A stretch of 64,000 bases of DNA from Podarcis liolepis. Its lineage: Eukaryota. The notes beneath the pieces were generated by a model. It saw only the letters and a list, made by a program, of their open reading frames with translations. It ran no database searches and was not told the DNA's origin. The stretch lies in NCBI GenBank assembly GCA_965112155.1, contig OZ218103.1, one strand, 5' to 3'. The translations under genes and the position numbers were made by a program. Of the stretch, positions 1,457-64,000 are shown piece after piece; position 1 is the first letter of the stretch; each line of letters starts with the position of its first letter.

Positions 1457-4400
1457 CTAGAAGGGAAAGGAAAGAGACATCAGAACTTTGCTCTTGCCAG
1501 TTTCTGAAACCAAAGTAAGCATTTTCCTAACTTACATACAACAAACAGACAAGTTTCAGCAGAAGCGTTCCCCCTCCTGCTCTTTCTGCAAAGGGCTTAG
1601 AGAAGAGGCTGTAGATGTACATTTTTTCTGGGGAATTTAGTAAAGGTAAAGGGACCCCTGACCATTAGGTCCAGTCGTGACCAACTCTCGGGTTGCGGCG
1701 CTCATCTCGCTTTATTGGCCGAGGGAGCTGGCGTACAGCTTCCATGTCATGTGGCCAGCATGACTAAGCTGTTTCTGGCGAACCAGAGCAGCGCACGGAA
1801 ATGGCGTTTACCTTCCCACCGGAGCGGTACCTATTTATCTACTCGCACTTTGATGTGCTTTCAAACTGCTAGGTTGGCAGGAGCAGGGACTGAGCAACGG
1901 GAGCTCACCCCATCGCGGGGATTCGAACCGCCGACCTTCTGATCGGCAAGTCCTAGGCTCTGTGGTTTAACCCACAGCGCCACCAGGAAGCAGCTAAATC
2001 AGCGGTTGCATTAGCAGCCTGGCTGAGGACCTGCTGCGTTCTAGAGTTTGGTTCCAATAAAAGCCATGCATGCCAGTGGTGCTTCTTCACTTTTTTCTCT
2101 CTCTCTCTGGTCTACAGTAGACGGAATGATAGCATGTGCTCCAGTGTTTTATAGACTGAAGTAGTGGGTGCAGCTAAGTGGGGAGTATTTGCATGGCCTG
2201 GCAAATAATGATAAGAGGCCGGAGTTAGCCACAGGTGAAAAAAGGAAACTAAAATGCATGCAGCCAGATGTGTTTTGATAATAAAAGCAGTGAAGTATGC
2301 TGCAGACACATCAGATACAGATAAAGAAACATCTATGTGCTTTATTGCATTTAGATCATTTAGCTGTCATTGGTCCCATTTTACAGGTGGTTACATAAAA
2401 CACTGAGGCACCACAATATGTGTGTTCACCTTTAAATCCATGGCAGAGGTCTTAAGGAAAAAAGCACCTCGGAGCATATACAGAGTGCTTTCCCCCTCAT
2501 ATTAAAGCTTTTCAATGCAAAATGTAATGCAAATATCCATGAATTATAATACAGTGTAAACCAACAAGTGTTGGTGACAGCAGAGCACAGAGATTGAAGT
2601 CAGAGAGAGAGGTGATGAGGGAGGAGGGTAACGACTTAGGATGACTGTAGAAGAGGCACTGTCTCGCCCCCAAGGAAAGCCCTGCCCAGCTCCAATCTAC
2701 CTGCCGCCCAGTTCCCAAAATGTCATGGGAAATTACCGTACCCACACATTGTAAGGCTTCACACTGCAATTATGACAGCAAAAAAACTTGGATAGCAGGT
2801 TTTCTGTGCAGTAGCCCAACTGAAAGTAAATTGCGCCTATGAAAGATGGACATGCCTTATTACAGCCTCAAGACTCTCCTCAGCTGTAATAGAGTTTATT
2901 CAGTTTCCACGTTTGTTCCTTTTTTAAAAAACAAACAAACTTGATTTTTCTGCCTGATATTTGACAATACTGCCAAATTTCGTTTCGTTTTAACCCTACA
3001 GGCATGGGGAGCACATGGGACCTACAGATGTGGATAGATTCCAACTCTCATCAGCCCCAGTCTGCATACTCAGTGGTCAGGAACCACCTGCAGGGCCACA
3101 GGGGCCCTTGCCCTAGTTCTGTAATGGACCAAAGTCCATTTGAATTGATACCATATTTCCAACTGCATTTCAAATACCTCATATTTTGCATGGACCACAG
3201 GTTTCATAAACTTACTCCCCTTCCAGAGTGTCACTGACAACAGTGGAATTGGGATCTTTTTAATTCAGTACTCTGAGGATGCAGCTTTTCAAATCTTGTA
3301 TTAATCATGTATTAATCTTGAGAGCAGTACATGTGAAAAGGATCTAGGAGTCTTGGTTGACCACAAACTTGACATGAGCCAACAGTGTGACGCGGCAGCT
3401 AAAAAAGCCAATGCAATTCCGGGCTGCATCAATAGGAGTATAGCATCTAGATCAAGGGAAGTAATAGTGCCACTGTATTCTGCTCTGGTCAGACCTCACC
3501 TGGAGTACTGTGTCCAGTTCTGGGCACCACAGTTCAAGAAGGACACTGACAAACTGGAACGTGTCCAGAGGAGGGCAACCAAAATGGTCAAAGGCCTGGA
3601 AACGATGCCTTATGAGGAACGGCTAAGGGAGCTGGGCATGTTTAGCCTGGAGAAGAGGAGGTTAAGGGGTGATATGATAGCCATGTTCAAATATATAAAA
3701 GGATGTCACATAGAGGAGGGAGAAGGTTGTTTTCTGCTGCTCCAGAGAAGCGGACACAGAGCAATGGATCCAAACTACAAGAAAGAAAATTCCACCAAAA
3801 CATTAGGAAGAACTTCCTGACAGTAAGAGCTGTTCGACAGTGGAATTTGCTGCCAAGGAGTGTGGTGGAGTCTCCTCCTTTGGAGGTCTTTAAGCAGAGG
3901 CTTCACAACCATATATCAGGAGTGCTCTGATGGTGTTTCCTGCTTGGCAGGGGGTTGGACTCGATGGCCCTTGTGGTCTCTTCCAACTCTATGATTCTAT
4001 GGTTCTATTCTATGATTCTAATCTTGCAATAACACATTTTCACCAGCTGGTAAAAAAAACTACCTGGCCACATGGTTATTCCAAGGCACTATGTTATATT
4101 GTTACTTTACTGCAGCGGTTTTATTTTGTAAACCGCCTTATTTTTCACAACGAAAGGTGGTTTATGAACACTACCAAATGAAATAAAAATTTTTAATTTG
4201 AGAAGCCAATCTTTTCAAAGAGGTACCTCAAAATGGTCTTGCTCAGTGCCTTGTGGGTCACCAGAGATCACATTTAATTATGCGACTTATTGACTTCCGG
4301 TTGTCAGTGATAATACAAAGTTACAACATTGACTTGAGAGGATAATATGGAATATTGCTAAAGGGAGAAGCACTGTACCCAGCCCAGACAGCTGTGGAAA

Positions 4401-7400
4401 CCAAGAAACAGCGATAATAAAATCACCACGTTTCTGCAACCTCAGAAGTTTTCCTGGCACCTCCCTTTTTAAAAAGAAAAGAGCTACCACAGGCATTTTA
4501 CACTTCTGGAACGTGAAGAGAAAGAAACTGCCAAATGTGACAGAGAGCGAAGAACTGGGTTTGGCAACTTGTGTACTATAAAGCAAGCCTGGTGCTGAAG
4601 TATCATTGATCATCCTGACAGTTCTCTCAGCCATTTTAGGTTAGGTTACTGAACTGCCTTTTCCTACATCTCTGATTTTATTCCTGACTGGCAGGAAGTT
4701 CAAGTGTAATAAGAAACTTTGCAGGGAGAGCAGGACCATTTATTCTCTTCTCAGTTCCTGGTTAATGAGCCTTGTAGCATGGAGCAAAAGAAAAAGAAAG
4801 AAAGAAAGAAAGAAACCCAAGTGGAAGGATCTCAGGGCATCTGAGGTTCTCGGATCACTTGGGGAGATCTGTGGATTTCACCCAAGAATGTTAAAATAGC
4901 ACAATATTGGCTCAACAGATGTACAAAGAACAATACTGCATTTTAAATCGTTTTCCGGGTGATCAAGCTAACCTTTAAAAATGCAATGGCATAAAAGGAG
5001 AAGGAAGTTCTACTGCAAAATGCATGCCATCCTCCAGAGATTGAACATTGTGGGTGATGAATGCTACAGTAGAATTTAAATTATTGATTCTAGGTAAGTA
5101 TGCTCCACTCAGTAGTATGGCTAGGGGCAGCAGAATGAGTTTATAAGAAAAATGTTTACTGGCTCAGAGCAGCGGCCAGGGAAATAACAAAGTACTTCCA
5201 TTTCCTAGTGTTGACTCCCAGCAGTCTGAAGTTTACAAACTAGAAGGCAATATATGTGTCTTTCGTGAATCAATCCAATGGTGTTTTTTAAAAACAAACA
5301 AGCAAACAAACCACACCTATGACAGTATGCATAATACACCCACAAAATGACCTACCTTTCTTGCGACTCTGAGATCAAGACCTGCTTCCCATGGGGAAAA
5401 GGCAAGCCAGGGCTTGTAATTAGCTACTCACCCAGGCTGAACTGCAGTTTCTTTCCCCTTCTTAGATCCAACACGCAAGCTGACTTAAGACCGTAAGTTT
5501 ACTGCTAGATCAGGTCCATAGTCTATTAAATGAAGCATTGTGTCCTGTAATACAGAGACCTCTCCCCACAAGGAACACCCCCGATGCAGGAGCTAGACGA
5601 ATGCTCTGTAGAACGGTGATCATCTTACCTCTTGAAACCAAGCTTGGAGCCAGTGGCCTATGATTGCTAAGCTGTCTGCAGGGCAAACAGCCCAAATCAT
5701 TATGAGAAGAATGAGGAGCACGAAATCCACAAAATGCATCAGGCTCGCCTTCTCTGCCTTAAAACAAGGAAAAGGGTATTTTAAAACCACCTATTTATGT
5801 CCTAATCTTGCGCATGGATATTTAAGGTTTTCTGTATTCAAAACGATGCGCTGTCTACCGACCCCTTTTACAAAACGTGAAGACGCAGAAGTTGCTGTTA
5901 CTTCTCCAACTTGGTTCACCAGCTGTTGCTGGACTACAACTCCCATCACATCCTGCTAGCTAAGGATTATGGGAGTTGTAGTCCAACTGGAGATCCAACT
6001 TGGAGAAACACTGTATGAAGCCACAATGCTGGCAGAAGAAGTACTGGATGCTGGAAAGCACCAACCCTGGGTAAGGAAGGCCTATAAAGAGCTATTCAGT
6101 TGTACGACACACCCCTAACTTCTGACTTCAATTAACATCACAGATGCAGAGTTTGGAGCAAAGCTTATTAGCCCTAGGAGGCAGGCTGTGAGCATCGCTG
6201 GGTAATTCCAGTCAAATATGGTGGTCTCCACATTGGTCACCTATGACCATGTGTTTAGTTTCAGAGGGCTTTGGCAACGTCACTTTTTAAATCAGGATAC
6301 ATACCCCGTGTCCCAGAACAGCATGAGCAAGTTCATGTCCCAGAATGAAAGACAGCTCATTGATATCTGACACAGCAGATAGCATACCAGTGAAAACAAA
6401 CAGTTGTCCATTCTGCAGGCAAAGAGAGGAAAGATAATACTGCAAACAAATTGTTTCACAGAGCAATCCAAAGTGGGGGTGGGGGTGAACCCACAGCTTG
6501 GCCAGGCCAGCACCAGCAGAGCAGAAAAATTGGGGGGGGGGGAGAGACAGAATGAAGGAAAAAAGAGAAGTTGTGTTTCTTCTTTATTCCTCCTTTTCTT
6601 CAGCACACTTCTTTTGGGGGGCGAGGTGAGGAAGGGAGACTTTCCTGCACGTTGGTCAGAAAAGGAGAGAAAATCAGCACGCAAACTTCAGGACATGTTT
6701 TCTCTCGACCCGTGTATGTGGACTGGGGGAGGCTGGATCCCAGAAGCTCCTCTTCTCCCCCACACCTTTTTGCCCTCTCTACTGTGAAAGCAATAATGGC
6801 AGAGGAAGGACAGCGGTACCAAGTCAAGCCCAATACTGTCTGCACTGACTGGCAGAGGCTCCTCCTGAGGGATTCAGATTTGGTGACATGCCCAGCCTCG
6901 CCTGCAGAAGCCAGGGACTGAATCTGGAAGAGCAAGGAGATGCTCTGCCTCTGAGATATGACCCCCCACCCTCACCGCCAAGAGGGAGAGGCACAAAATC
7001 CTTCGGCCTCTGGGACGTCCTCCCAAGGACAACAGGAATGCGCTGTCAGTAGCTTCTTTCCGAATTATTACATCTCTTGGTGTTCGATTTTTACTTACTG
7101 GAAGCACAACAGCATTAATGTCTGGTCCCTCCACCACATGGATAGTCCACTTGAACTCAGAGAGTCCTGGAAAATCCTTGTTGCTGTCAACCAAATGCAA
7201 AAAGACTTTTTTGACCTCCTGGTAACGGGGGTCCGTTTCAGGCAACATTCTGCTTTTAAATTCTTCGACCCACTGGAAGAAAAAGAGGACGCAGCATACT
7301 GACCGATTCAAGGCAAGTAAAATTGCAATTAAGAGATACAATATGCATGAATATCCATGGAAGAGGTAAAGGTACCCCTGCCCGTACGGGCCAGTCTTGC

Positions 7401-13400: not shown

Positions 13401-13923
13401 AGTATACTCTATACTGCTATAGTGTGTAGCAGAGCAATATTAATGTTTACCTCCCAAGGATGACAGCAAATAGTTTCTGAACTGGCTTCAATAGAATCCA
13501 CAAGATTGGAACGGGAGCCGCCTTCAGTGCTGAAGATCTGTGAAAAGGCCTGTGAAACTGGACATTCTGAGAAGCAGTCAAGTGTCGAGATTTTTGAAAA
13601 GAAAGTCCTCTTGCCCTTTGCTCAGAGAGAATACAAGGCCTCTTAGAACAGCTGTGTGCAACGTTGAAAATTCCTGCATTCTTAGGGTTCAAAAGCCGCA
13701 CTTGACTTTTATTAATGAGGTTACTGTAGGTGTTGGAACTTTCCGTCATTAAGTAGCACCTTCTGTTTTTACTTTTGTTCCATGATTGGCACTTAGTCAC
13801 TTGATGCTGGTGTCTGTTCAATGCTTCACTGGAAAACTTGTAAGGATTAATGCACTTTCCCCAACAGGCCAAAGATGTAAATCTAGTTAAAAGACAGTTC
13901 CTTGAGCCACTAAGAGCAGCCAT
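1382..13923 (-). CDS. OMA1: OMA1 mitochondrial inner-membrane zinc metallopeptidase (M48 family); spliced CDS, 3' exons lie outside the window
   Basis: Six GT-AG coding exons join in frame over 1188 nt: 13451-13923, 8655-8883, 7099-7272, 6305-6412, 5629-5757, 1382-1456. Peptides [39 protein letters not shown] (HEXXH) and [17 protein letters not shown] match vertebrate OMA1. No stop codon is reached in the window. Confidence 0.96.
1640..1984 (-). mobile_element. Sauria/Squam1-type SINE
   Basis: Minus strand has a tRNA-like head with A box TGGCGCTGTGG and B box GGTTCGAATCC (1919-1929), plus a (ACCTTT)-type tail. Similar to the copies at 7366 and 58725. Confidence 0.9.
3321..4018 (+). mobile_element. 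CR1 LINE, 5'-truncated (ORF2 C-terminus plus 3' UTR)
   Basis: Peptide [19 protein letters not shown]...[12 protein letters not shown]...RRLRGDMI is the typical CR1 ORF2 end. Frameshift near 3720. Ends in the (ATTCTATG)n tail. Possible TSD taatcttg at 3313-3320 and 4019-4026. Confidence 0.95.
4792..4815. repeat. (AAAG)n microsatellite
   Basis: Tandem AAAG units. Confidence 0.8.
5629..5757 (-). CDS. OMA1: OMA1 coding exon 5 (129 nt)
   Basis: TTTTAAG| ... |GTAAGA; encodes [43 protein letters not shown]. Confidence 0.94.
5903..6005. mobile_element. Palindromic MITE remnant (related to 34626)
   Basis: ggactacaactcccat...atgggagttgtagtcc inverted repeat. Confidence 0.65.
6305..6412 (-). CDS. OMA1: OMA1 coding exon 4 (108 nt, HEXXH active site)
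   Basis: CTGCAG| ... |GTATGT; encodes [36 protein letters not shown]. Confidence 0.96.
7099..7272 (-). CDS. OMA1: OMA1 coding exon 3 (174 nt)
   Basis: TTCCAG| ... |GTAAGT; encodes [10 protein letters not shown]...DINAVVLP. Confidence 0.95.
7366..7714 (-). mobile_element. Sauria/Squam1-type SINE with 17-bp TSD
   Basis: Same head and tail structure; perfect flanking repeat gaatatccatggaagag at 7349-7365 and 7715-7731. Confidence 0.92.
8655..8883 (-). CDS. OMA1: OMA1 coding exon 2 (229 nt, transmembrane segment)
   Basis: CTTACAG| ... |GTGGGT; encodes [17 protein letters not shown]...[18 protein letters not shown]...EYAM. Confidence 0.95.
9516..9975 (-). mobile_element. Probable solo LTR (460 bp)
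   Basis: TGTCAG...CTGACA inverted termini; 5-bp flanks cctgg/cctag; ATTAAA on the minus strand at 9605-9610. Confidence 0.6.
10561..10803. mobile_element. Degenerate Tc1/mariner (Tigger-like) MITE
   Basis: TA|CAGTCGTACCTC left end; internal sequence is the reverse complement of the family below; right TIR is decayed. Confidence 0.65.
11566..11769. mobile_element. Tc1/mariner (Tigger-like) MITE
   Basis: TIRs CAGTGGTACCTC...GAGGTACCACTG with TA duplication. Confidence 0.88.
13083..13294. mobile_element. Tc1/mariner (Tigger-like) MITE
   Basis: Same TIRs and TA duplication; shared core ggccccattagctaaagtgg. Confidence 0.88.
13451..13923 (-). CDS. OMA1: OMA1 first coding exon (exon spans 13451-13945), mitochondrial presequence region
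   Basis: Acceptor TTTCTAG| before 13945; ATG at 13923 in GAGATGG context; ends LFAVILG-R with donor GTAAAC. Confidence 0.9.
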
Positions 13924-26939: not shown

Positions 26940-27866
26940 TTATGCATGTTGTCCTCTTCGCATTTCTCCCATCTCTTTAATCTCAACCTTCTCATACTTG
27001 CCCGTCTTCCGCCTCCTGGTAACCACGAGCACAGTTATCCCAATAACAATGGCCAGGACTACCACCACCACCACTGCAATGATGCCCGCTGTCAGGCGCT
27101 GCATAGAGAACTCTGGTGGTTTGTCATCAACGTAGTATACTAGGATTTCTTCAATATCTAGAGGTTCGTCATTGACATAGAGACCAAACATATTATCGGG
27201 TGGGAAAATGGGTTTACCCTGGATGTCTTTTTCAAAGTAGTAAGCTACATCTGCAATGTCAACATCTCTGTAAGACTTGTCCGAAATGTTCTGCTTTAGG
27301 TCGATATGGATTAATGGCTCCTTGTACTCAACAGCTGTGATGAACTTCGGATGGAGCATATAGCGGTTTTCAATGAGCTGTCGGAAGCTGTTTGCCACTT
27401 CTGATTCAGACAAGGAAGTTTTTCGCTCTTTGTGCTTCATCTCAATGTAGATCCAGCTTGTTCTGACCAGCTCGTTGCACCTCATGTTGAGATCCCCCTT
27501 GTCCGTCCTCCTTACCCCAGCGCTGTTCACACACCAACAAGTATCTGTCTGATTGCACTGCCTGGCTTTGAAGAAGCCCATGGCATCACATTCTGGGTTA
27601 TAAAGTCCATCGTTGTCCACAAACCCATGCTCGGGCCTGGGAAAACTTCTGCCTCTTTTGGTTTTTATTTCCGCCTTCAGCAGCAGACATTTTGGAGTCA
27701 GCGTTGAACAGTCCAGCCTCTGGTTCGAACCGCGTGCCGTACAGATGCAGCTGCCGGATTCCAAACTGCAAGACGCCAGGTTATTCGTTGAGCAAAAGCA
27801 GTCGTTCTGGGCGGCCGACGTGGCCACAAGCATCAACACCAGGGCAGCCCCAAAAGCAGACTCCAT
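26940..27866 (-). CDS. TACSTD2: Tumor-associated calcium signal transducer 2 (TROP2), intronless, 308 aa
   Basis: First ATG at 27866 (MESAFGAALVLMLVATSAA signal peptide); the ORF track start at 27926 is a TTG. It has a 6-Cys N-terminal domain, a thyroglobulin type-1 domain (QC..CWCV), a TM helix and tail GKYEKVEIKEMGE. Lack of introns and the position between OMA1 and MYSM1 distinguish it from EPCAM. Confidence 0.95.
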   Translation of the reverse strand: MESAFGAALVLMLVATSAAQNDCFCSTNNLASCSLESGSCICTARGSNQRLDCSTLTPKCLLLKAEIKTKRGRSFPRPEHGFVDNDGLYNPECDAMGFFKARQCNQTDTCWCVNSAGVRRTDKGDLNMRCNELVRTSWIYIEMKHKERKTSLSESEVANSFRQLIENRYMLHPKFITAVEYKEPLIHIDLKQNISDKSYRDVDIADVAYYFEKDIQGKPIFPPDNMFGLYVNDEPLDIEEILVYYVDDKPPEFSMQRLTAGIIAVVVVVVLAIVIGITVLVVTRRRKTGKYEKVEIKEMGEMRRGQHA

Positions 27867-39455: not shown

Positions 39456-57120
<17,665 letters not shown>

Positions 57121-57714
57121 GCCGACACCCGCCCGCCGACGCCGCAGCCGCCGACACCGGAAGTCGCGGGAACAAAACAGGAAACGGGGGGTCCAAGGCC
57201 GGCCCAGGGAATGCGGTTCAACCATAGAGAGTTGTGAGCATGCGCTCCATGACGCTGCGAAGCTTCGGGCGCCCTTCCTTTTGCCCTCAAGCTCTAACGG
57301 GGAATCGCCGGACTGGGGGGGGGGGGGCGGGATGCGCAGTGGGAATAGGAAAAGAGCTTGGTAGGAAGCGGACCGCGATGGGAAGAGAGAAGAAGCAGGG
57401 TAGGAAGAATATAATAGGGCATGTTCTTGTCTCTACACACACACACACGCGCGCGGGGAAGCTTCCAAAATGAAAACGTAAAAGCACAGCGTAACCAAAC
57501 AAAAAGCAGAATTTTGCAGGGAAAGTGGGAGTCCTCGGGGAGAAATTAAAACGGGATAAAATGACCTCTTCTGGTTGCAAGCCATGGGTGGTGATCAAAG
57601 GATAGAAGTTGAAGGAGAGCTCTCACTCGGGAGAAAAATAACATTCCGGTCCTACTTAGAATTCAGTTAAAAATACCTCTGTCAACGCCAGTAGCCACTG
57701 CCTATGTTAGATTA

Positions 57715-57953
57715 CAATGGTACCTCGGGTTAAATACGCTTCAGGTTAAATACGCTTCAGGTTGCAGACTCCACTTACCCAGAATTATTACCTCGGGTTA
57801 AGAACTTTGCTTCAGGATGAGAACAGAAATCGCGCGGCAGCAGCGGGAGGCCCCATTAGCTAAAGTGGTACCTCAGGCTAAGAATGGTTTCAGGTTAAGA
57901 ACAGACCTCCGGAACGAATTACTACTGTAAGTTCTTAACCCGAGGTACCACTG
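57715..57953. mobile_element. Tc1/mariner (Tigger-like) MITE upstream of MYSM1
   Basis: CAATGGTACCTC...GAGGTACCACTG with TA duplication. Confidence 0.87.
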
Positions 57954-58724
57954 TATTGCCCTATTGCTCAGGTATAGGAGATTTGTAAAATGGACGCATT
58001 TCACAGATCCTTAACGAGAATTTTCACATTTACGACTAAACAGAGGACTGAAATCATAAATGTGGGAGTATTTTTTCAGATTATTAACTATAAAGTTGTT
58101 GAGGCACCAAGAATTGTGTGAGAGCAGACAGCACGTCAGCTGCCTTAAATGGTGTCAGCATGACTCAGCTTTATCCTGATGTAAGCTTCTTCTGAGCTTG
58201 TTGAAGGAATAATGGGAACCAAATTCTATAAATAAACAATATAGCAGGAAGAACAGGTACAACCATCAAGTACAAATTTGGTTTTATCTTTTTTTTTGTA
58301 AATTGTTTTGAAGGTTTTTGTCTTTACAATCAAGCAGTGTACTGTAGAAATTTTATGAAATAAGTAATACTCTCGGTGTTTCTCCATCCTTGCTTTGTTC
58401 AAACTTATGCCATTGCTTAAAACAGTCACTTTCCCCCTTTCAGAGCCCTCACTTCTTCACTTACTTTCCTTCTTCCATTCCTCAGCTACCCTATATGAGA
58501 CAGATAATGGATGTGGATCCCACAAATTTTTCATAGTATGATCCCATAGAGTGTTTCATTCTTACCATGTATTGCCTTCGAAATGAAGTTCCAGATTCAA
58601 TGCAGTAATTCAGATATTTTATTATCAAGCAAACACCCATATATAAACAACAACAATGAAGCTTCTCTAACTGAACAAGCTAACTGACATACCTTCTCTT
58701 AAAATTTTATTTGTTTTAAAGATA

Positions 58725-59090
58725 AAGTAAAGGTAAAGGGACCCCTGACCGTTAGGTCGTCGCGGATGACTCTGGGGTTGCGGTGCTCATCTTGCTTTAC
58801 TGGCCGAGGGAGCCTGCATTTGTCTGCAGACAGCTTTCCGGGTCATGTGGCCAGCATGACTAAGCCGCTTCTGGCAAACCAGAGCAGCACATGGAAACAC
58901 CATTTACCTTCCCGCCGGAGCGGTACCTATTTATCTACTTGCACTTTGACGAGCTTTCGAACTGCCAGGTTGGCAGGAGCAGGGAATGAGCAACGGGAGC
59001 TCACCCTATTGCAGGGATTTGAACCACCAACTTTCTGATCAGCAAGCCCTAGTCTCTGTGGTTTAGACCACAGCACCACCCGCGTCCCAG
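58725..59090 (-). mobile_element. Sauria/Squam1-type SINE with 12-bp TSD
   Basis: Highly similar to the copy at 1640; flanking repeat gttttaaagata at 58713-58724 and 59091-59102. Confidence 0.9.
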
Positions 59091-59410
59091 GTTTTAAAGA
59101 TACAATAACATATAATCATGAGGGTATATGTGCAAATGGGACTACAGAATATGAGAGAAGAGAAGGTCTGGAGGGGGGGCTGTGTGAATTGGGGTGCCCA
59201 AATGGAGAGGGAGGCATGGACATAGGGGGAAACGGGTGGATATAGGTGCAAAGTTGGGCTGCAGAACAGAAGAGAGTAGCTGCTTCAAAGGTATAGTTGG
59301 GAAGGTGAAATGGAGGTTTAGCAATTGCATGGGGTGAAAAAGGAAAGAAAAAGGGGGTTAATGTGGGGGCACTGGGGGATTCCAAATGGAATGAGCAGGG
59401 AGGGCAGAAC

Positions 59411-59561
59411 CATGGGCGTAGCCAAGAGGGGGCAGCTCCCCTCCCCCCCCCCCCCGATCAAGTAAAACAATATAAATACTTAACTAACTGACCAATCACG
59501 TCAGTTCTGCCCCTCCAACAATGTCCTACCCTCCCTAACAAAAATCCTGGCTACACCCATG
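59411..59561. mobile_element. hAT-type MITE (same family as 17107)
   Basis: Same TIRs and shared core aatacttaactaactgaccaat; perfect 8-bp TSD ggcagaac. Confidence 0.86.
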
Positions 59562-60310
59562 GGCAGAACCCTCCTAGTACAGTAATATCTGTAATCCCAA
59601 CCACACCCCAAAAAGCTTATGTCCAAAGCAGCTAATATCAATTGTAATAAAACAACACACAACAATAAAACATCAAAACAAATCAGGAACAATAAGAGAT
59701 AGGCAGGCAATCTAAAACTAAAATCTAAATGCTAAGCGGTAATCCAACTGAATAATTTTGAAGAGCAAACCAAAACAACACTGGCAAGGAGGGAGATAGC
59801 GTAATCCCTCCATGCAATGGCATTCCATGTGCTGGGTGCCATTACAGGAAAAGGTTAACCTTTCCATGACTGTATTTAAGTAGTAGCTTAGTACCTGTAG
59901 GCAGCATGGAATTGCATGCAGGCAAATGAGTAGGCTTGAGGAGAAGGAGGGATGAGGGCCCCATTCCTCCTCTGTGCTCAGAATAGAAACCAAGTGAGCT
60001 GGCAGGTGAGGGAAGCCCTGCCTCTGTAGGAATGCAGAGAGGCTTGCTTCAGGAGGAATGAAATACTTCTGCCAACCACCTCCAGTGGATGGACTAGTTG
60101 TTTTCTTAAGGCTAGGGCCTTTTGTGGGCTTGTTTATAGGAACCCTCCCTCCTTTAAGATTTTGATTTAAAATAATAATAATCAAGAGATCCAACCACTG
60201 ATTTCCTGCATTGACCCTGAAATAGGGGGGCCCAGACACAGGTGAGAGCAAGGCACTAGACAGCAGGAAGAAACAACTTGTGCTTCTTACGTAGATTCTT
60301 CTTAGCACAT

Positions 60311-62581
60311 TTATCTTATCAATAACATTTTCTTTTTCAAAAGAGTAACAATTTGAGCCTGGCTTTCAGTTGGGCTGGATTCTGCTACTTGAAGTGGAGT
60401 CTTCTTCAGGCTATTTGTGGCCTGCAGATTTGCTTTACCCCCCTCAGACCAGCTGACCAGTGCGCTCACACAGTTAAAATGACCAGCTCTGCAAGCACAA
60501 TGCAATGGTGTGTCCTTATTGTTGTCCAGAGCATTAATGGCTGAACCGTTGCTCAAGAAGAAATGTATTAGGTCGCTGTGTCCGTGTTCTGCTGCAAGAT
60601 GTAGTGGTGTCTTCCTCCAAATATTTTTGTCATCGATATTTTTATTCTTGCCAGCAGCCAGAAGGGCCTGTAGTATCTCCACATTCCCATTGATGGCGGC
60701 ATAGTGCATAGATGTGCATCCGTCCATGTCTTTGGCACCAAACCTGGACTTCTTCGCTAACAGTGCTTTCACTGCGTTAAGATGACCTCCCATGGCTGCA
60801 AGATGAAGCGGGGTCTTTTTCTCCTTGTCTGTTGCATTGGAGTCAGCATTGAAGTTCAGCAGCAGTTCTACCATAGCAGGGTTTCCTGCTTCAGCAGCAA
60901 GATGCAGAGCTGTCTTTGCCTGCTTATCCTTAACGTTGACATTAGCCTTTCGCCGCAGCAGCTTTTGCGCAACTTCCACATGGCCCTTATAACTTGCAAT
61001 GTGCAAGGGAGTGAGCAGTTCTTTAGTGACCGAATCAGTTTTCGCACCTCCGTCAATCAATAAGTCAACTAGTCCTCCCTTATTGTGCAATGCGGCCACG
61101 TGGAGGGGGGTCTGATCTCCCTGCCCGGCAATGTTGGCATCCAATCCTTTGCTCAGGAGCATCTTTGCAATGGAGGAGGCTCCAGCTTGAACTGCCAGAT
61201 GTAAAGCACTGCTTGAGTTTGGGGCCTTGTCCTTCAGGCTCGCTCCCTTTTCAATGAGAACTTTTGCTGACTCGGTCTTGCCCATCTCGCACGCCACAAG
61301 CAGTGGTGTGTACTGCGCTTCGTCGAGGGCGTTTTTGTCGGTACCTTTATCAATTAAAGCTGCTACGATGCCATGCAGGTCCTTCTGAATGGCTTTAAAG
61401 AGAGCTGACACCATCATAGCCGGCGACATGCCTTTGGAATAGTCCAGCAATAACTTGAAGAGAGAGTGACTGTTGCTGTTAAAGGCTACATCAATGATGC
61501 TGGAATCAATGTTGGCTCCAGCTTCCAGGAGAACCTGGACAGTCTTCTCAAACCCTCGAGACACGGCATAGCCCAAAGCGGTCTGTCCTCTCTCATCCTT
61601 GGCATCCTTCAAAGCACCATTCTTTAGGATGGCTTGCACCAGCTCACTGTCATCTCTGAGAGCAGCCATGTGCAGGAAGTTGTGTTGGTTCTTGTGTCGC
61701 CTCACCTCTTCTTTCAGGATGCTCTTCAGAACATGGGTGTGGTGGTTCTGATGGGCCAAATGAAGTGGGCTCTTGCCTTCTTGATCCAAGGTGTACATGT
61801 TGGCACCCGACTGGAGCAGCATTTTCACAGCTTCGCCGTGACCTCTCTCAGCAGCTCTGTGTAGCGGGGTTCTTCCTTTCTTATCCTTAACTTCCAGCTT
61901 AGCCCCTCTGCCGATTAGATAGTCAATTATTTCTGTATGCCCGTGAGCCGCTGCAATGTGTAGGAGGGTTTCATCTTCAGAGTTTACTGCGTTAATATCA
62001 TTCTCTTTTAAGATCTTTTCTAAATAGGAAAGATTACCTTTAGCCACAGAATCAAAGACGGAAAGAGAATTGAAAGAATTGTCTTGGGATTTCACAGCAG
62101 CTGAATCCTTTTTTACTTTACGTTTGATCTGAGTCAGCTTTTCTGGCTTAGCTAAAACCTGTCTGGGGCTATCCTTCTTTTCTTGGTGAGGATCTTTACC
62201 CTTTTGAACCCACCCTTTATCTTTCTCCAGTAGATAACCTATCAGTTGCCTTCTGGCATCACCAATTCTTTCATTCACATTGCTGACATAACTCCTCATG
62301 TTGTTATATAGCTGTGGCTCAATCTGTTTCAGACATGGATAAAAAAAGAGCCTGCAAGCTCGCTCACCTTGAGAAACCAATATATCCAGGACCCGGGAGT
62401 TCTTTGCAGTTCTTGTTCTGTAGTAGGATAAGACCATTTTTTTCTCCGGTGTAAAAATGCCGTGTTCTATCAGCCAGTTCAGAAGCTGATCAGGGTTCCT
62501 TATGCCATCTACAAGTTCGTTCTTTTTCGTTCTCAGTACTTCTGTGGCATAGGGATTTGTGAACATGCCAGCTGAATACAT
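60311..62581 (-). CDS. CAIAP: CARD- and ankyrin-repeat-containing inflammasome adaptor protein (Caiap-like), intronless CDS, 756 aa (751 aa if the ATG at 62566 is used)
   Basis: Uninterrupted ORF. N-terminal CARD-like helical domain ([17 protein letters not shown]...LLNWL...[18 protein letters not shown]), a basic linker, then roughly 15-16 ankyrin repeats (TPLHxAA...G...V..LL..GA). This architecture matches zebrafish Caiap. Confidence 0.88.
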
Positions 62582-63724
62582 GATGTGTTTAGATTATGCA
62601 CCCGCAATACATTAAACATGCCTTTGAAGTTCGGCATTTAGCATGAGAAAGGGTAGATTGTTACATAAGTTTGCTCCAGTTTCTGCCAACAAATATTCTG
62701 GTGGTCCAACTGGAAATCTCAGCGACAACCACACACACAGGGGGGAAAGGGAGAGCATAAACTTTTCACCTCTCGTTGTGCAACGCTGTTGCCTTCCAAT
62801 TCTCTTTTCTATTCCTTAACAACAGACTGGAGTTGACGAATTGAAACAAAACAAAACTCAGTAAAAATATTCCAGTAAAAATGGTCGCATTGCAAGAACT
62901 TGCAAGATAAAATCGGGAGGAAGTTTTCAAAGTTGGTAGCTAAGCTGTTGATGGATAGAAACTAAAAAAAAAAAAAAATGTATTTGGCATGTGTGACCCA
63001 TCTGTCAAACATGTCAGTAGAAAAGCAGCAGGCTAGTAACTGTTGCTATGTAATTAGCCTTTGTGTAACATTAAGATAAAATTGTATACCCTTCAGTTAG
63101 TTACACAGCGGCATATCACACAGTGATCAAAAGCTGCAGGGCAAGTAGCTAAGAATGAGTTTAATGTTTCAAAAAAAGTAGATCCCGCATTTATTTTATT
63201 TATTTAGAAAAATGCATTAGCCACTTTTTAAAAAAAACTATCCTAAGCAATGTACATACAACAATAAAACTTTTCAGATAGCAACATAATGGCATGCTAT
63301 GAAAGGGCCATATATGTGAAACATGAAAAAAATCAAGAAATAGACATTTATTTTACCTTTCGCAACATGTAATAATTTAATCAGTGCTGTGAGCTTATGG
63401 CGTTTCGATAAAGGCAAATTCTGATTGAAAACACATCTGTCCTCGAGGTGGAATATTTTAACAACTGAGGAATTTTCATTAAAGCGATATGGGCAAATTA
63501 TAATGACGGCTTCTAATAAACAGAAGATTAGCAGAACAATCTTACATAGCAATTGCACCGGGAGTAAAGTTACATCACTGCTATTTTATATTTATAGACA
63601 TATTCATAGTCTGCCCTCTCACAAAATATCAGGGCAGTGCACAGCAATATAACAAAATATTTTTTTAAAAAGCATTAAAAGCAGTATGGAATTATCATTA
63701 AAATAACCAGCAACTCAATAAATA

Positions 63725-63760
63725 AATGAATGAATGAATGAATGAATGAATGAATGAATG
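63725..63760. repeat. (AATG)n microsatellite
   Basis: About 9 tandem AATG units. Confidence 0.9.
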
Positions 63761-64000
63761 CATAGGTCTGCCAGCAGCTTTCTTCTAAGCAGGTAGGATG
63801 GCTATACATGCTCAGCCCAGGAGTAGGAAAGAAAACACACAAAACAGAAAATTCAAAAATAGCATAAAAGCAGAAGATAGGCCCCTCCATCTGTGAACAC
63901 ATAGCCAAAATCCACCATACACAAACCATACACAGAGGAAGCCAGTGAACTCACAGTGAAAAGGGCACAGTGAAAATGGGTGCTGTGCAGGGGTATATTC

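What the first reader, a model, noticed from the sequence alone, without database searches (positions are those of the whole stretch)
60311..62581. Intact intronless CARD-ankyrin (Caiap-type) inflammasome adaptor gene
Seen: a 2.27-kb uninterrupted ORF fusing an N-terminal CARD-like domain to a long ankyrin array, with no kinase, NACHT or LRR domain. Known: this architecture matches Caiap, characterised in zebrafish as an inflammasome adaptor and reported in non-placental vertebrates but not placental mammals. As I recall, the human OMA1-TACSTD2-MYSM1-JUN interval has no such gene. Inference: this is a functional squamate ortholog and an innate-immune component that has barely been studied in reptiles. 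It is the least-characterised gene in the window, but not wholly new.
Basis: partly seen in the sequence, partly recalled or inferred. Interest (0 to 1): 0.75.

Follow-up and report, generated by a model that had tools for sequence, protein, structure and literature searches.

The report
Lizard Caiap, CARD-ankyrin immune adaptor gene
This is an unbroken lizard copy of Caiap, a known vertebrate gene that likely helps hold active inflammatory caspase together as it does in zebrafish; it is ordinary apart from a conserved, untested extra helix behind its CARD domain.

Summary
Confirmed. The ORF 62581-60311 (minus strand, 756 aa) is unbroken. It has a CARD at aa 14-96 (Pfam E 6e-10; predicted fold matches solved CARDs at Z about 12) and 16 ankyrin motifs. 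It is 51% identical to zebrafish Caiap over its whole length and 97% to a Zootoca protein, and the gene tree follows the species tree. It lies just upstream of MYSM1 in an OMA1-TACSTD2-MYSM1 block; JUN is outside the window. The family is published (PMC5662874, which already lists three squamates) and is named in many reptile annotations. Function in lizards is inferred from that single zebrafish study.

Additions here: (1) lungfish and lamprey orthologs exist, against the 2017 paper. (2) A conserved segment behind the CARD (aa 97-123, predicted extra helix, ending LE-x-D in 116 of 120 rows) was left in the paper's 'CARD-deleted' construct, so caspase binding was never mapped to the ankyrins alone. 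(3) That segment and the first ankyrin repeats are eroded together in 8 marsupials. No monotreme or placental ortholog appeared among named hits. The scan's earlier findings held nothing on this gene.

The parts
60311..62581 (-). caiap coding sequence, one unbroken ORF, 756 aa plus stop
62294..62563 (-). CARD, aa 7-96 (Pfam match aa 14-96); predicted six-helix death fold with a split first helix
   Evidence: coordinates
62213..62293 (-). Conserved post-CARD segment, aa 97-123: end of a prolonged helix 6 (to aa 106) and a predicted extra helix at aa 112-123 of low confidence (pLDDT about 62-65)
   Evidence: no Pfam family for aa 97-121 alone
62219..62230 (-). LEKD, aa 118-121; LE-x-D in 116 of 120 aligned rows with residues
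62072..62212 (-). Variable lysine-rich linker, aa 124-170, likely flexible
   Evidence: lowest conservation in the protein
60314..62071 (-). Ankyrin array, aa 171-756: 16 motif-bearing repeats, plus degenerate repeats inferred by eye near aa 172 and 362
61547..62071 (-). First ankyrin block, aa 171-345, eroded in marsupial orthologs
62582..62629 (-). 48 nt upstream of the ATG that lie on one contig with the start of the ORF (run X1, RNA status a guess); in-frame stop at 62594-62596
42879..50917 (-). Context: two MYSM1 exons (SWIRM-bearing 50165-50917, JAB-bearing 42879-43040); CpG-island-like stretch at 56501-57500 is the likely 5' end
   Evidence: the name MYSM1 for this domain set (PDB calls it KIAA1915) is recalled
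26940..27866 (-). Context: single-exon EpCAM/Trop-2 family ORF, 308 aa, read as TACSTD2
   Evidence: assignment to TACSTD2 rather than EPCAM rests on recalled intronless structure and gene order
6290..6412 (-). Context: peptidase M48 exon with HExxH, read as OMA1
   Evidence: the name OMA1 is inferred from family and gene order

Best explanation
This is the intact lacertid-lizard ortholog of Caiap, and it likely works as in zebrafish: a cytosolic scaffold predicted to bind already-activated caspase-1 through the part behind its CARD and to cluster through its CARD, keeping the enzyme in stable high-mass complexes. Shown here: intact frame, CARD and ankyrin domains, orthology, gene order. Taken from zebrafish and HEK293T work (PMC5662874): binding to active but not inactive Caspa, no binding to Asc, CARD-dependent oligomers, need for resistance to Salmonella. 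[quoted passage not shown] Orthology about 0.97; conserved mechanism about 0.6.
For: 51% identity and 70% similarity to Danio Caiap over 751 columns, matching the 48-50% the paper reports for reptiles. The CARD fold is supported by the model (pLDDT 88-95 over aa 11-100) and by the structure search: best rows CARD8, NLRC4, ARC and BinCARD CARDs at Z 12.0-12.3, rmsd 1.2-2.1, 79-88 aligned. A quick tree of 36 chosen rows places the query with Zootoca (support 100) then Rhineura (99) inside squamates (100), with fishes, amphibians and archosaurs in expected order. The C-terminal repeats (aa 621-756) stay 49-81% identical from lamprey to lizards and 60-65% in marsupials, as expected of a conserved binding surface. 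The position aligned to NOD1 Arg-69, a type Ia interface residue (PMC4132792), is Ser in 108 of 121 rows and never Arg; this fits a CARD that does not pair canonically with ASC.
Against: All functional data come from one paper that used morpholino, crispant and overexpression assays; the other hits I opened for the name are a review and a reference-list citation. Zebrafish Caspa has a PYD prodomain while the paper itself leaves other vertebrates open. Caiap is kept full length in chicken, turkey and zebra finch, which appear to lack Pycard/ASC (PMC13076529), although the zebrafish effect needed Asc. Two raw RNA runs of a related organism label showed next to no reads on the ORF (X16, about 12% read; X14, about 6% read; tissues unknown). 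No complex was modelled.
Confidence: 0.6

Rival explanations
1. Same gene, but the active caspase docks on the conserved post-CARD segment (aa 97-123, ending LE-K/R-D), as a slow or uncleaved pseudo-substrate, and the ankyrins bind another partner.
For: The paper's CARD-deleted construct removes zebrafish I12-Y97, which maps to lizard T13-Y98, so the segment stayed in. aa 108-122 is the second most conserved 15-mer of the protein. LE-x-D stands in 116 of 120 rows and is the only [LWYFIV]E-x-D motif in the query. Only catalytically active Caspa bound. The likeness of LE-x-D to caspase P4-P1 preferences, and that Lys after Asp disfavours cutting, are recalled.
Against: The model makes aa 112-123 a helix, while caspase substrates bind extended (recalled); the Asp may simply end the helix. 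In the more diverse set only 62 of 72 rows keep LE-x-D. No binding test could be run.
Confidence: 0.12
2. Caiap's main role is outside inflammasomes, as a scaffold in development or cell-death control, and the zebrafish infection phenotype is a side branch.
For: Strong single-copy conservation from lamprey to birds. Zebrafish transcripts are maternal and found in heart and skin as well as kidney. It is kept in birds that appear to lack ASC. The best structural matches include apoptosis CARDs (ARC, caspase-9) tied with inflammasome ones.
Against: Zebrafish morphants developed normally, and infection induced caiap in macrophages. A shared fold shows no function either way.
Confidence: 0.18
3. 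The CARD is NOD1-like and recruits RIPK2 to drive NF-kB, with the ankyrins as a sensor in place of NACHT-LRR.
For: NOD1 is the closest solved CARD by sequence (E 2.7e-5; next family E 0.19) and ranks first in Foldseek (E 4e-3). NOD1 Glu-53 aligns to E46 (E or D in 119 of 121 rows).
Against: Three of four NOD1 residues reported for RIP2 binding or signalling (Asp-54, Glu-56, Arg-69) align to K47, M49 and S62, with no Asp/Glu at 47 or 49 and no Arg at 62 in 121 rows. In the wide structure search NOD1 (Z 11.5) is tied with many other CARDs.
Confidence: 0.07
4. It is a member of another ankyrin family (RIPK4, ANKK1, ANKDD1) or a recent, unexpressed retrocopy.
For: Single coding exon, next to a single-exon TACSTD2. 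ANKDD1A/B clusters are the next look-alikes of zebrafish Caiap in the Atlas (score 0.96, 131-138 of 256 features shared).
Against: No kinase domain, and the CARD is N-terminal. The two Caiap clusters score 0.99 with 225-228 features shared. End-to-end alignment with orthologs across vertebrates and a frame open over 756 codons.
Confidence: 0.02

Closest known systems
Caiap, zebrafish (PMC5662874; stored protein P0108, 744 aa)
   Same: N-terminal CARD, linker, 16 ankyrin repeats; 51% identity end to end; post-CARD segment 80% identical.
   Different: Linker unrelated (10% identity). The zebrafish gene has two exons, and here only one coding exon is seen. The zebrafish partner Caspa has a PYD prodomain. 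No assay exists for the lizard protein.
Squamate Caiap records (Zootoca 'ankyrin-3-like' P0002; Rhineura P0003; Anolis P0010)
   Same: 97%, 85% and 77% identity, same length within one residue.
   Different: This exact sequence is not in the protein collection; some close records still carry generic ankyrin names or split gene models.
NOD1 CARD (PDB 2DBD, 2NZ7)
   Same: Closest solved CARD by sequence, about 25% identity.
   Different: [quoted passage not shown]
ANKDD1A/B (ankyrin repeats with a death domain)
   Same: Ankyrin array plus a death-fold domain; next Atlas look-alikes.
   Different: Different death-fold class; its C-terminal position in ANKDD1 is recalled, not tested; far fewer shared features than the Caiap clusters.

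Membership tests
Caiap | N-terminal CARD | tested here: met
   Pfam PF00619 aa 14-96, 39.4 bits above cut-off 23.9; model matches CARDs at Z 12.3, rmsd 2.0, 87 aligned
Caiap | About 16 C-terminal ankyrin repeats and no enzymatic domain | tested here: met
   16 motifs; no other Pfam family above cut-off besides ankyrin types and CARD
Caiap | Full-length similarity to zebrafish Caiap at about 50% identity | tested here: met
   381 of 751 identical; paper gives 48-50% for reptiles
Caiap | Orthology by tree | tested here: met
   Quick IQ-TREE tree of 36 rows follows the species tree; the careful search did not finish, and no other ankyrin family was included as outgroup
Caiap | Same gene neighbours in other vertebrates | not testable with these tools
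   No vertebrate genomes are held; only the lizard order and a human gene list were seen
Caiap | Binds active caspase-1-like enzyme, oligomerises through the CARD, does not bind ASC | not testable with these tools
Caiap | Expressed, low and inducible in macrophages | tested here: inconclusive
   Low-depth contigs cover all 8 bins from 60117 to 62524 in X1 and X2 (RNA status a guess); next to none in raw RNA runs X16 and X14
NOD1-type RIPK2-recruiting CARD | Glu-53, Asp-54, Glu-56, Arg-69 equivalents | tested here: not met
   Only Glu-53 is kept (E46); others align to K47, M49, S62
RIPK4 / ANKK1 | N-terminal protein kinase domain (recalled) | tested here: not met
   No kinase family at E<=0.1

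The most novel reading that the evidence does not exclude
Caiap carries a family-specific helix behind its CARD, ending in a near-invariant LE-K/R-D, that is the real docking site for activated caspase: a built-in pseudo-substrate that explains why only the active enzyme binds. It is older than jawed vertebrates (lampreys have it, even in a short paralog with only the first ankyrins), and its joint decay with the first ankyrin repeats in marsupials marks the step before the gene vanished in placental mammals.
Probability: 0.12. Interest if true: 0.6.

Novelty: already known. Interest (0 to 1): 0.22.

Why it matters
As a gene, little: Caiap is published and annotated in many reptiles. The side results sharpen an under-studied family. 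Orthologs in lungfish and lampreys move its origin to the base of vertebrates and remove two losses claimed in 2017. The published mapping of caspase binding to the ankyrins is confounded by a conserved segment left in the deletion construct, which is a cheap thing to test. If Caiap stabilises caspase-1 in birds that seem to lack ASC, it would bear on how non-mammalian pyroptosis is wired.

Tried and rejected
No whole genome is held, so JUN and synteny beyond the window were not checked. The run search listed no holder on record as RNA; this says nothing on expression. No read-through joint between caiap and MYSM1 and no joint inside the ORF appeared among the 15 joints shown (63 more not shown); the first MYSM1 exon region was itself uncovered in X1 and X2, so absence means little.

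Placental or monotreme ortholog: none among the named rows (120 of 151 listed; 16 of 16; only 8000 candidates scored) or (120 of 263 listed). The one named placental row there (P0236, PP6 ankyrin subunit) is at most 34% identical to the Caiap set, so another family. Protein searches cannot see pseudogenes. Of 45 representatives for the N-terminal region I looked up 20; the only named invertebrate-chordate row (Branchiostoma, E 5e-4) is a TRIM71-labelled multi-CARD protein without ankyrins by eye. The Atlas search of aa 5-125 gave only generic CARD clusters under 0.8, a lead at best. A conserved caspase site within the variable linker was rejected: Asp at 130, 137, 159 and 167 is kept in 3-43% of rows. 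dN/dS was not computed: no orthologous DNA was held. One search compared two unrelated exon frames and gave nothing. Paper searches returned no Caiap text in the 10 rows listed for each and are uninformative. The scan's earlier findings gave nothing on this gene.

Full report
Observation. The window holds an ORF on the minus strand from 62581 to 60311 that gives 756 residues without a stop; shuffled windows reach at most 191 residues in 50 trials. An in-frame stop lies 12 nt upstream of the ATG, so the frame cannot be extended. Pfam finds a CARD at aa 14-96 above its cut-off and ankyrin repeats, with no kinase, NACHT or LRR. A relaxed motif scan finds 16 ankyrin helix-1 motifs from aa 205 to 728. 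The gene is single in the window.

Identity. Searching with aa 1-170 gave 151 proteins, 120 listed; the best are lizard proteins (Zootoca 'ankyrin-3-like', Rhineura, Elgaria, Pogona), and many rows are named 'CARD- and ANK-domain containing inflammasome adapter protein'. Whole-protein identity is 97% to Zootoca, 85% to Rhineura and 77% to Anolis, and a Podarcis muralis fragment is 98.5% identical over 197 residues, so the window is from a lacertid lizard (inference). Against zebrafish Caiap, 381 of 751 columns are identical from aa 7 to the end. A quick tree of 36 rows chosen from 304 stored proteins follows the species tree; it has no outgroup from other ankyrin families, and the careful search did not finish. 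The exact sequence is not in the collection.

Surroundings. On the same strand lie a peptidase M48 exon (6290-6412), a single-exon EpCAM/Trop-2 ORF (26940-27866), and JAB- and SWIRM-bearing exons (42879-43040 and 50165-50917). I read these as OMA1, TACSTD2 and MYSM1 from family and order (names partly recalled). A CpG-rich stretch at 56501-57500 likely marks the MYSM1 start, about 3 kb beyond the caiap stop. A human deletion report lists OMA1; TACSTD2; MYSM1; JUN in a row (PMC5618647, figure legend passage), which fits absence of an annotated gene there. JUN is not in this window and no genome is held, so conserved synteny of caiap itself was not tested. A fish paper names Mysm1 and Oma1 as neighbours but not caiap in the passage seen (PMC4177693).

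Structure. A model of aa 1-130 from 72 sequences has pLDDT 88-95 over aa 11-100 and about 62-65 over aa 101-120, with helices 12-18, 20-26, 30-39, 45-51, 57-71, 73-87, 89-106 and an extra helix 112-123. The wide structure search returns CARDs on top (CARD8, NLRC4, ARC, BinCARD, caspase-9, zebrafish ASC, caspase-1, NOD1; Z 11.5-12.3, tied); the matches span aa 7-108 and barely test the extra helix. Foldseek gave no E<=0.001 but the same class, NOD1 first. [quoted passage not shown] The full-length model did not finish.

What is known. PMC5662874 (I read the abstract, methods, results and discussion, and part 1 of 3 of supplement 1; supplements 2-5 not read) describes zebrafish Caiap: 744 aa, CARD and 16 ankyrins, two exons; induced in macrophages by Salmonella; needed for caspase-1 activity and survival; no binding to Asc; binding to active but not C230A Caspa; CARD-dependent oligomers. 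Its table includes Anolis, garter snake and king cobra. It reports no ortholog in placentals, lamprey or lungfish. A search for caiap with inflammasome found 14 papers, 13 listed; a whole-word search found 68, 40 listed, mostly plant and place names. The two I opened are a review restating the result (PMC9978379, passages) and a reference-list citation (PMC12830592). I saw no reptile study in these listings, but the library lacks most subscription journals.

Additions. First, full-length orthologs exist in lungfish (P0075, 756 aa) and in four lamprey species (817 aa cluster; Pfam CARD E 9e-9); lampreys also have a 278-286 aa paralog with the N-terminal region and about three ankyrins. NCBI already names these, so this corrects the paper more than it discovers a gene. 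Second, the two most conserved 15-mers among 121 rows are aa 71-85 and aa 108-122; the second lies outside the Pfam CARD. The paper's CARD deletion (I12-Y97) maps to lizard T13-Y98 and so kept this segment, which ends in LE-x-D in 116 of 120 rows of A2 and 62 of 72 rows of the more diverse A4. Third, in 8 marsupial orthologs identity to the lizard falls to 24-40% over aa 97-121 (60-84% in 14 other rows) and 28-31% over aa 171-290 (40-79% in 13 other full-length rows), while the CARD (54-60%) and aa 621-756 (60-65%) hold. The ankyrin His at 208 and 241 is replaced in 8 of 8 marsupials and kept in 14 of 14 others, and the eight His positions from 461 on are kept in all 8 marsupials. The marsupial stem is long (0.91 against 0.13 for squamates). 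Against over-reading: a profile of aa 97-123 that included 5 marsupials still scores them 38.5-48.8 bits against 41.6-60.9 for 11 others, so the segment is eroded, not gone, and joint erosion does not show contact.

Expression. Laid on 55000-64000, two contig sets whose RNA status is a guess (X1, X2) cover all 8 bins from 60117 to 62524 at word depth 1-8, and 5 flanking bins are empty in both. Two raw RNA runs (X16, X14; 12% and 6% read) show next to nothing on the ORF. This fits low or tissue-limited expression, as in zebrafish, but does not show it. One X1 contig joins 48 nt of leader to the ORF start. A possible splice acceptor at 62711-62710 with a pyrimidine tract upstream (seen) leaves a 5'-UTR intron open.

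Mechanism. The best reading transfers the zebrafish model: after inflammasome activation, Caiap would bind processed caspase-1 through its post-CARD part and cluster through its CARD. In reptiles the pore former would be GSDMA, which caspase-1 from chicken, human and mouse cuts in Anolis and alligator (PMC10948149, passages). The green anole has Pycard, while chicken, turkey and zebra finch appear to lack it (PMC13076529, passages) yet keep Caiap; this fits ASC-independent binding but also a role outside ASC inflammasomes. Caspase-1 R55 in helix 4 is needed for ASC signalling (PMC7830601, passage); that Caiap S62 is its counterpart is inferred through NOD1 Arg-69 and was not aligned directly.

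Verdict. The observation and the name are right. The gene is a known ortholog, so novelty is 'already known' and interest 0.22. The bold reading, that the conserved post-CARD helix is the caspase dock, has about 0.12 probability and a simple test.

Noticed in passing
P0141 / P0174 (lamprey proteins): Short Caiap paralog of 278-286 aa: N-terminal region, about three ankyrins and a cysteine-rich tail. Pfam does not call its CARD.
   Followed up: partly
P0075 (Protopterus) and P0125 cluster (Lampetra, Petromyzon, Lethenteron): Full-length Caiap in lungfish and lampreys, where PMC5662874 reported none.
   Followed up: yes
P0139, P0195, P0201 (Podarcis muralis UniRef rows), also Anolis and bird rows: Short 'uncharacterized' proteins that are pieces of Caiap with internal gaps; likely split gene models, since the window shows one unbroken frame.
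   Followed up: partly
P0041, P0308, P0309 (zebra finch, turkey, chicken): Full-length Caiap is kept in three birds reported to lack Pycard/ASC (PMC13076529).
   Followed up: partly
window 56383-56657: Tandem array with a 46-nt period beside the CpG-rich stretch read as the MYSM1 5' end.
   Followed up: no
window 57713-57955 and 58727-59088: High-copy repeats between caiap and MYSM1 (very high depth and loose ends in all four runs); the first has 21-nt inverted ends, the second looks like a squamate SINE (recalled).
   Followed up: no
window 58711 and 58623: First AATAAA signals on the caiap strand lie about 1.6 kb past the stop, beyond the repeat; the 3' end is not known.
   Followed up: no
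window 3374-3820 (+): 148-aa frame that resembles the end of a CR1-type LINE ORF2 (recalled); no Pfam family above cut-off.
   Followed up: no
window 13447-13923 (-): 158-aa frame rich in basic and hydroxyl residues, likely the first coding exon of OMA1 with its mitochondrial targeting part (inference; no Pfam match above cut-off).
   Followed up: no
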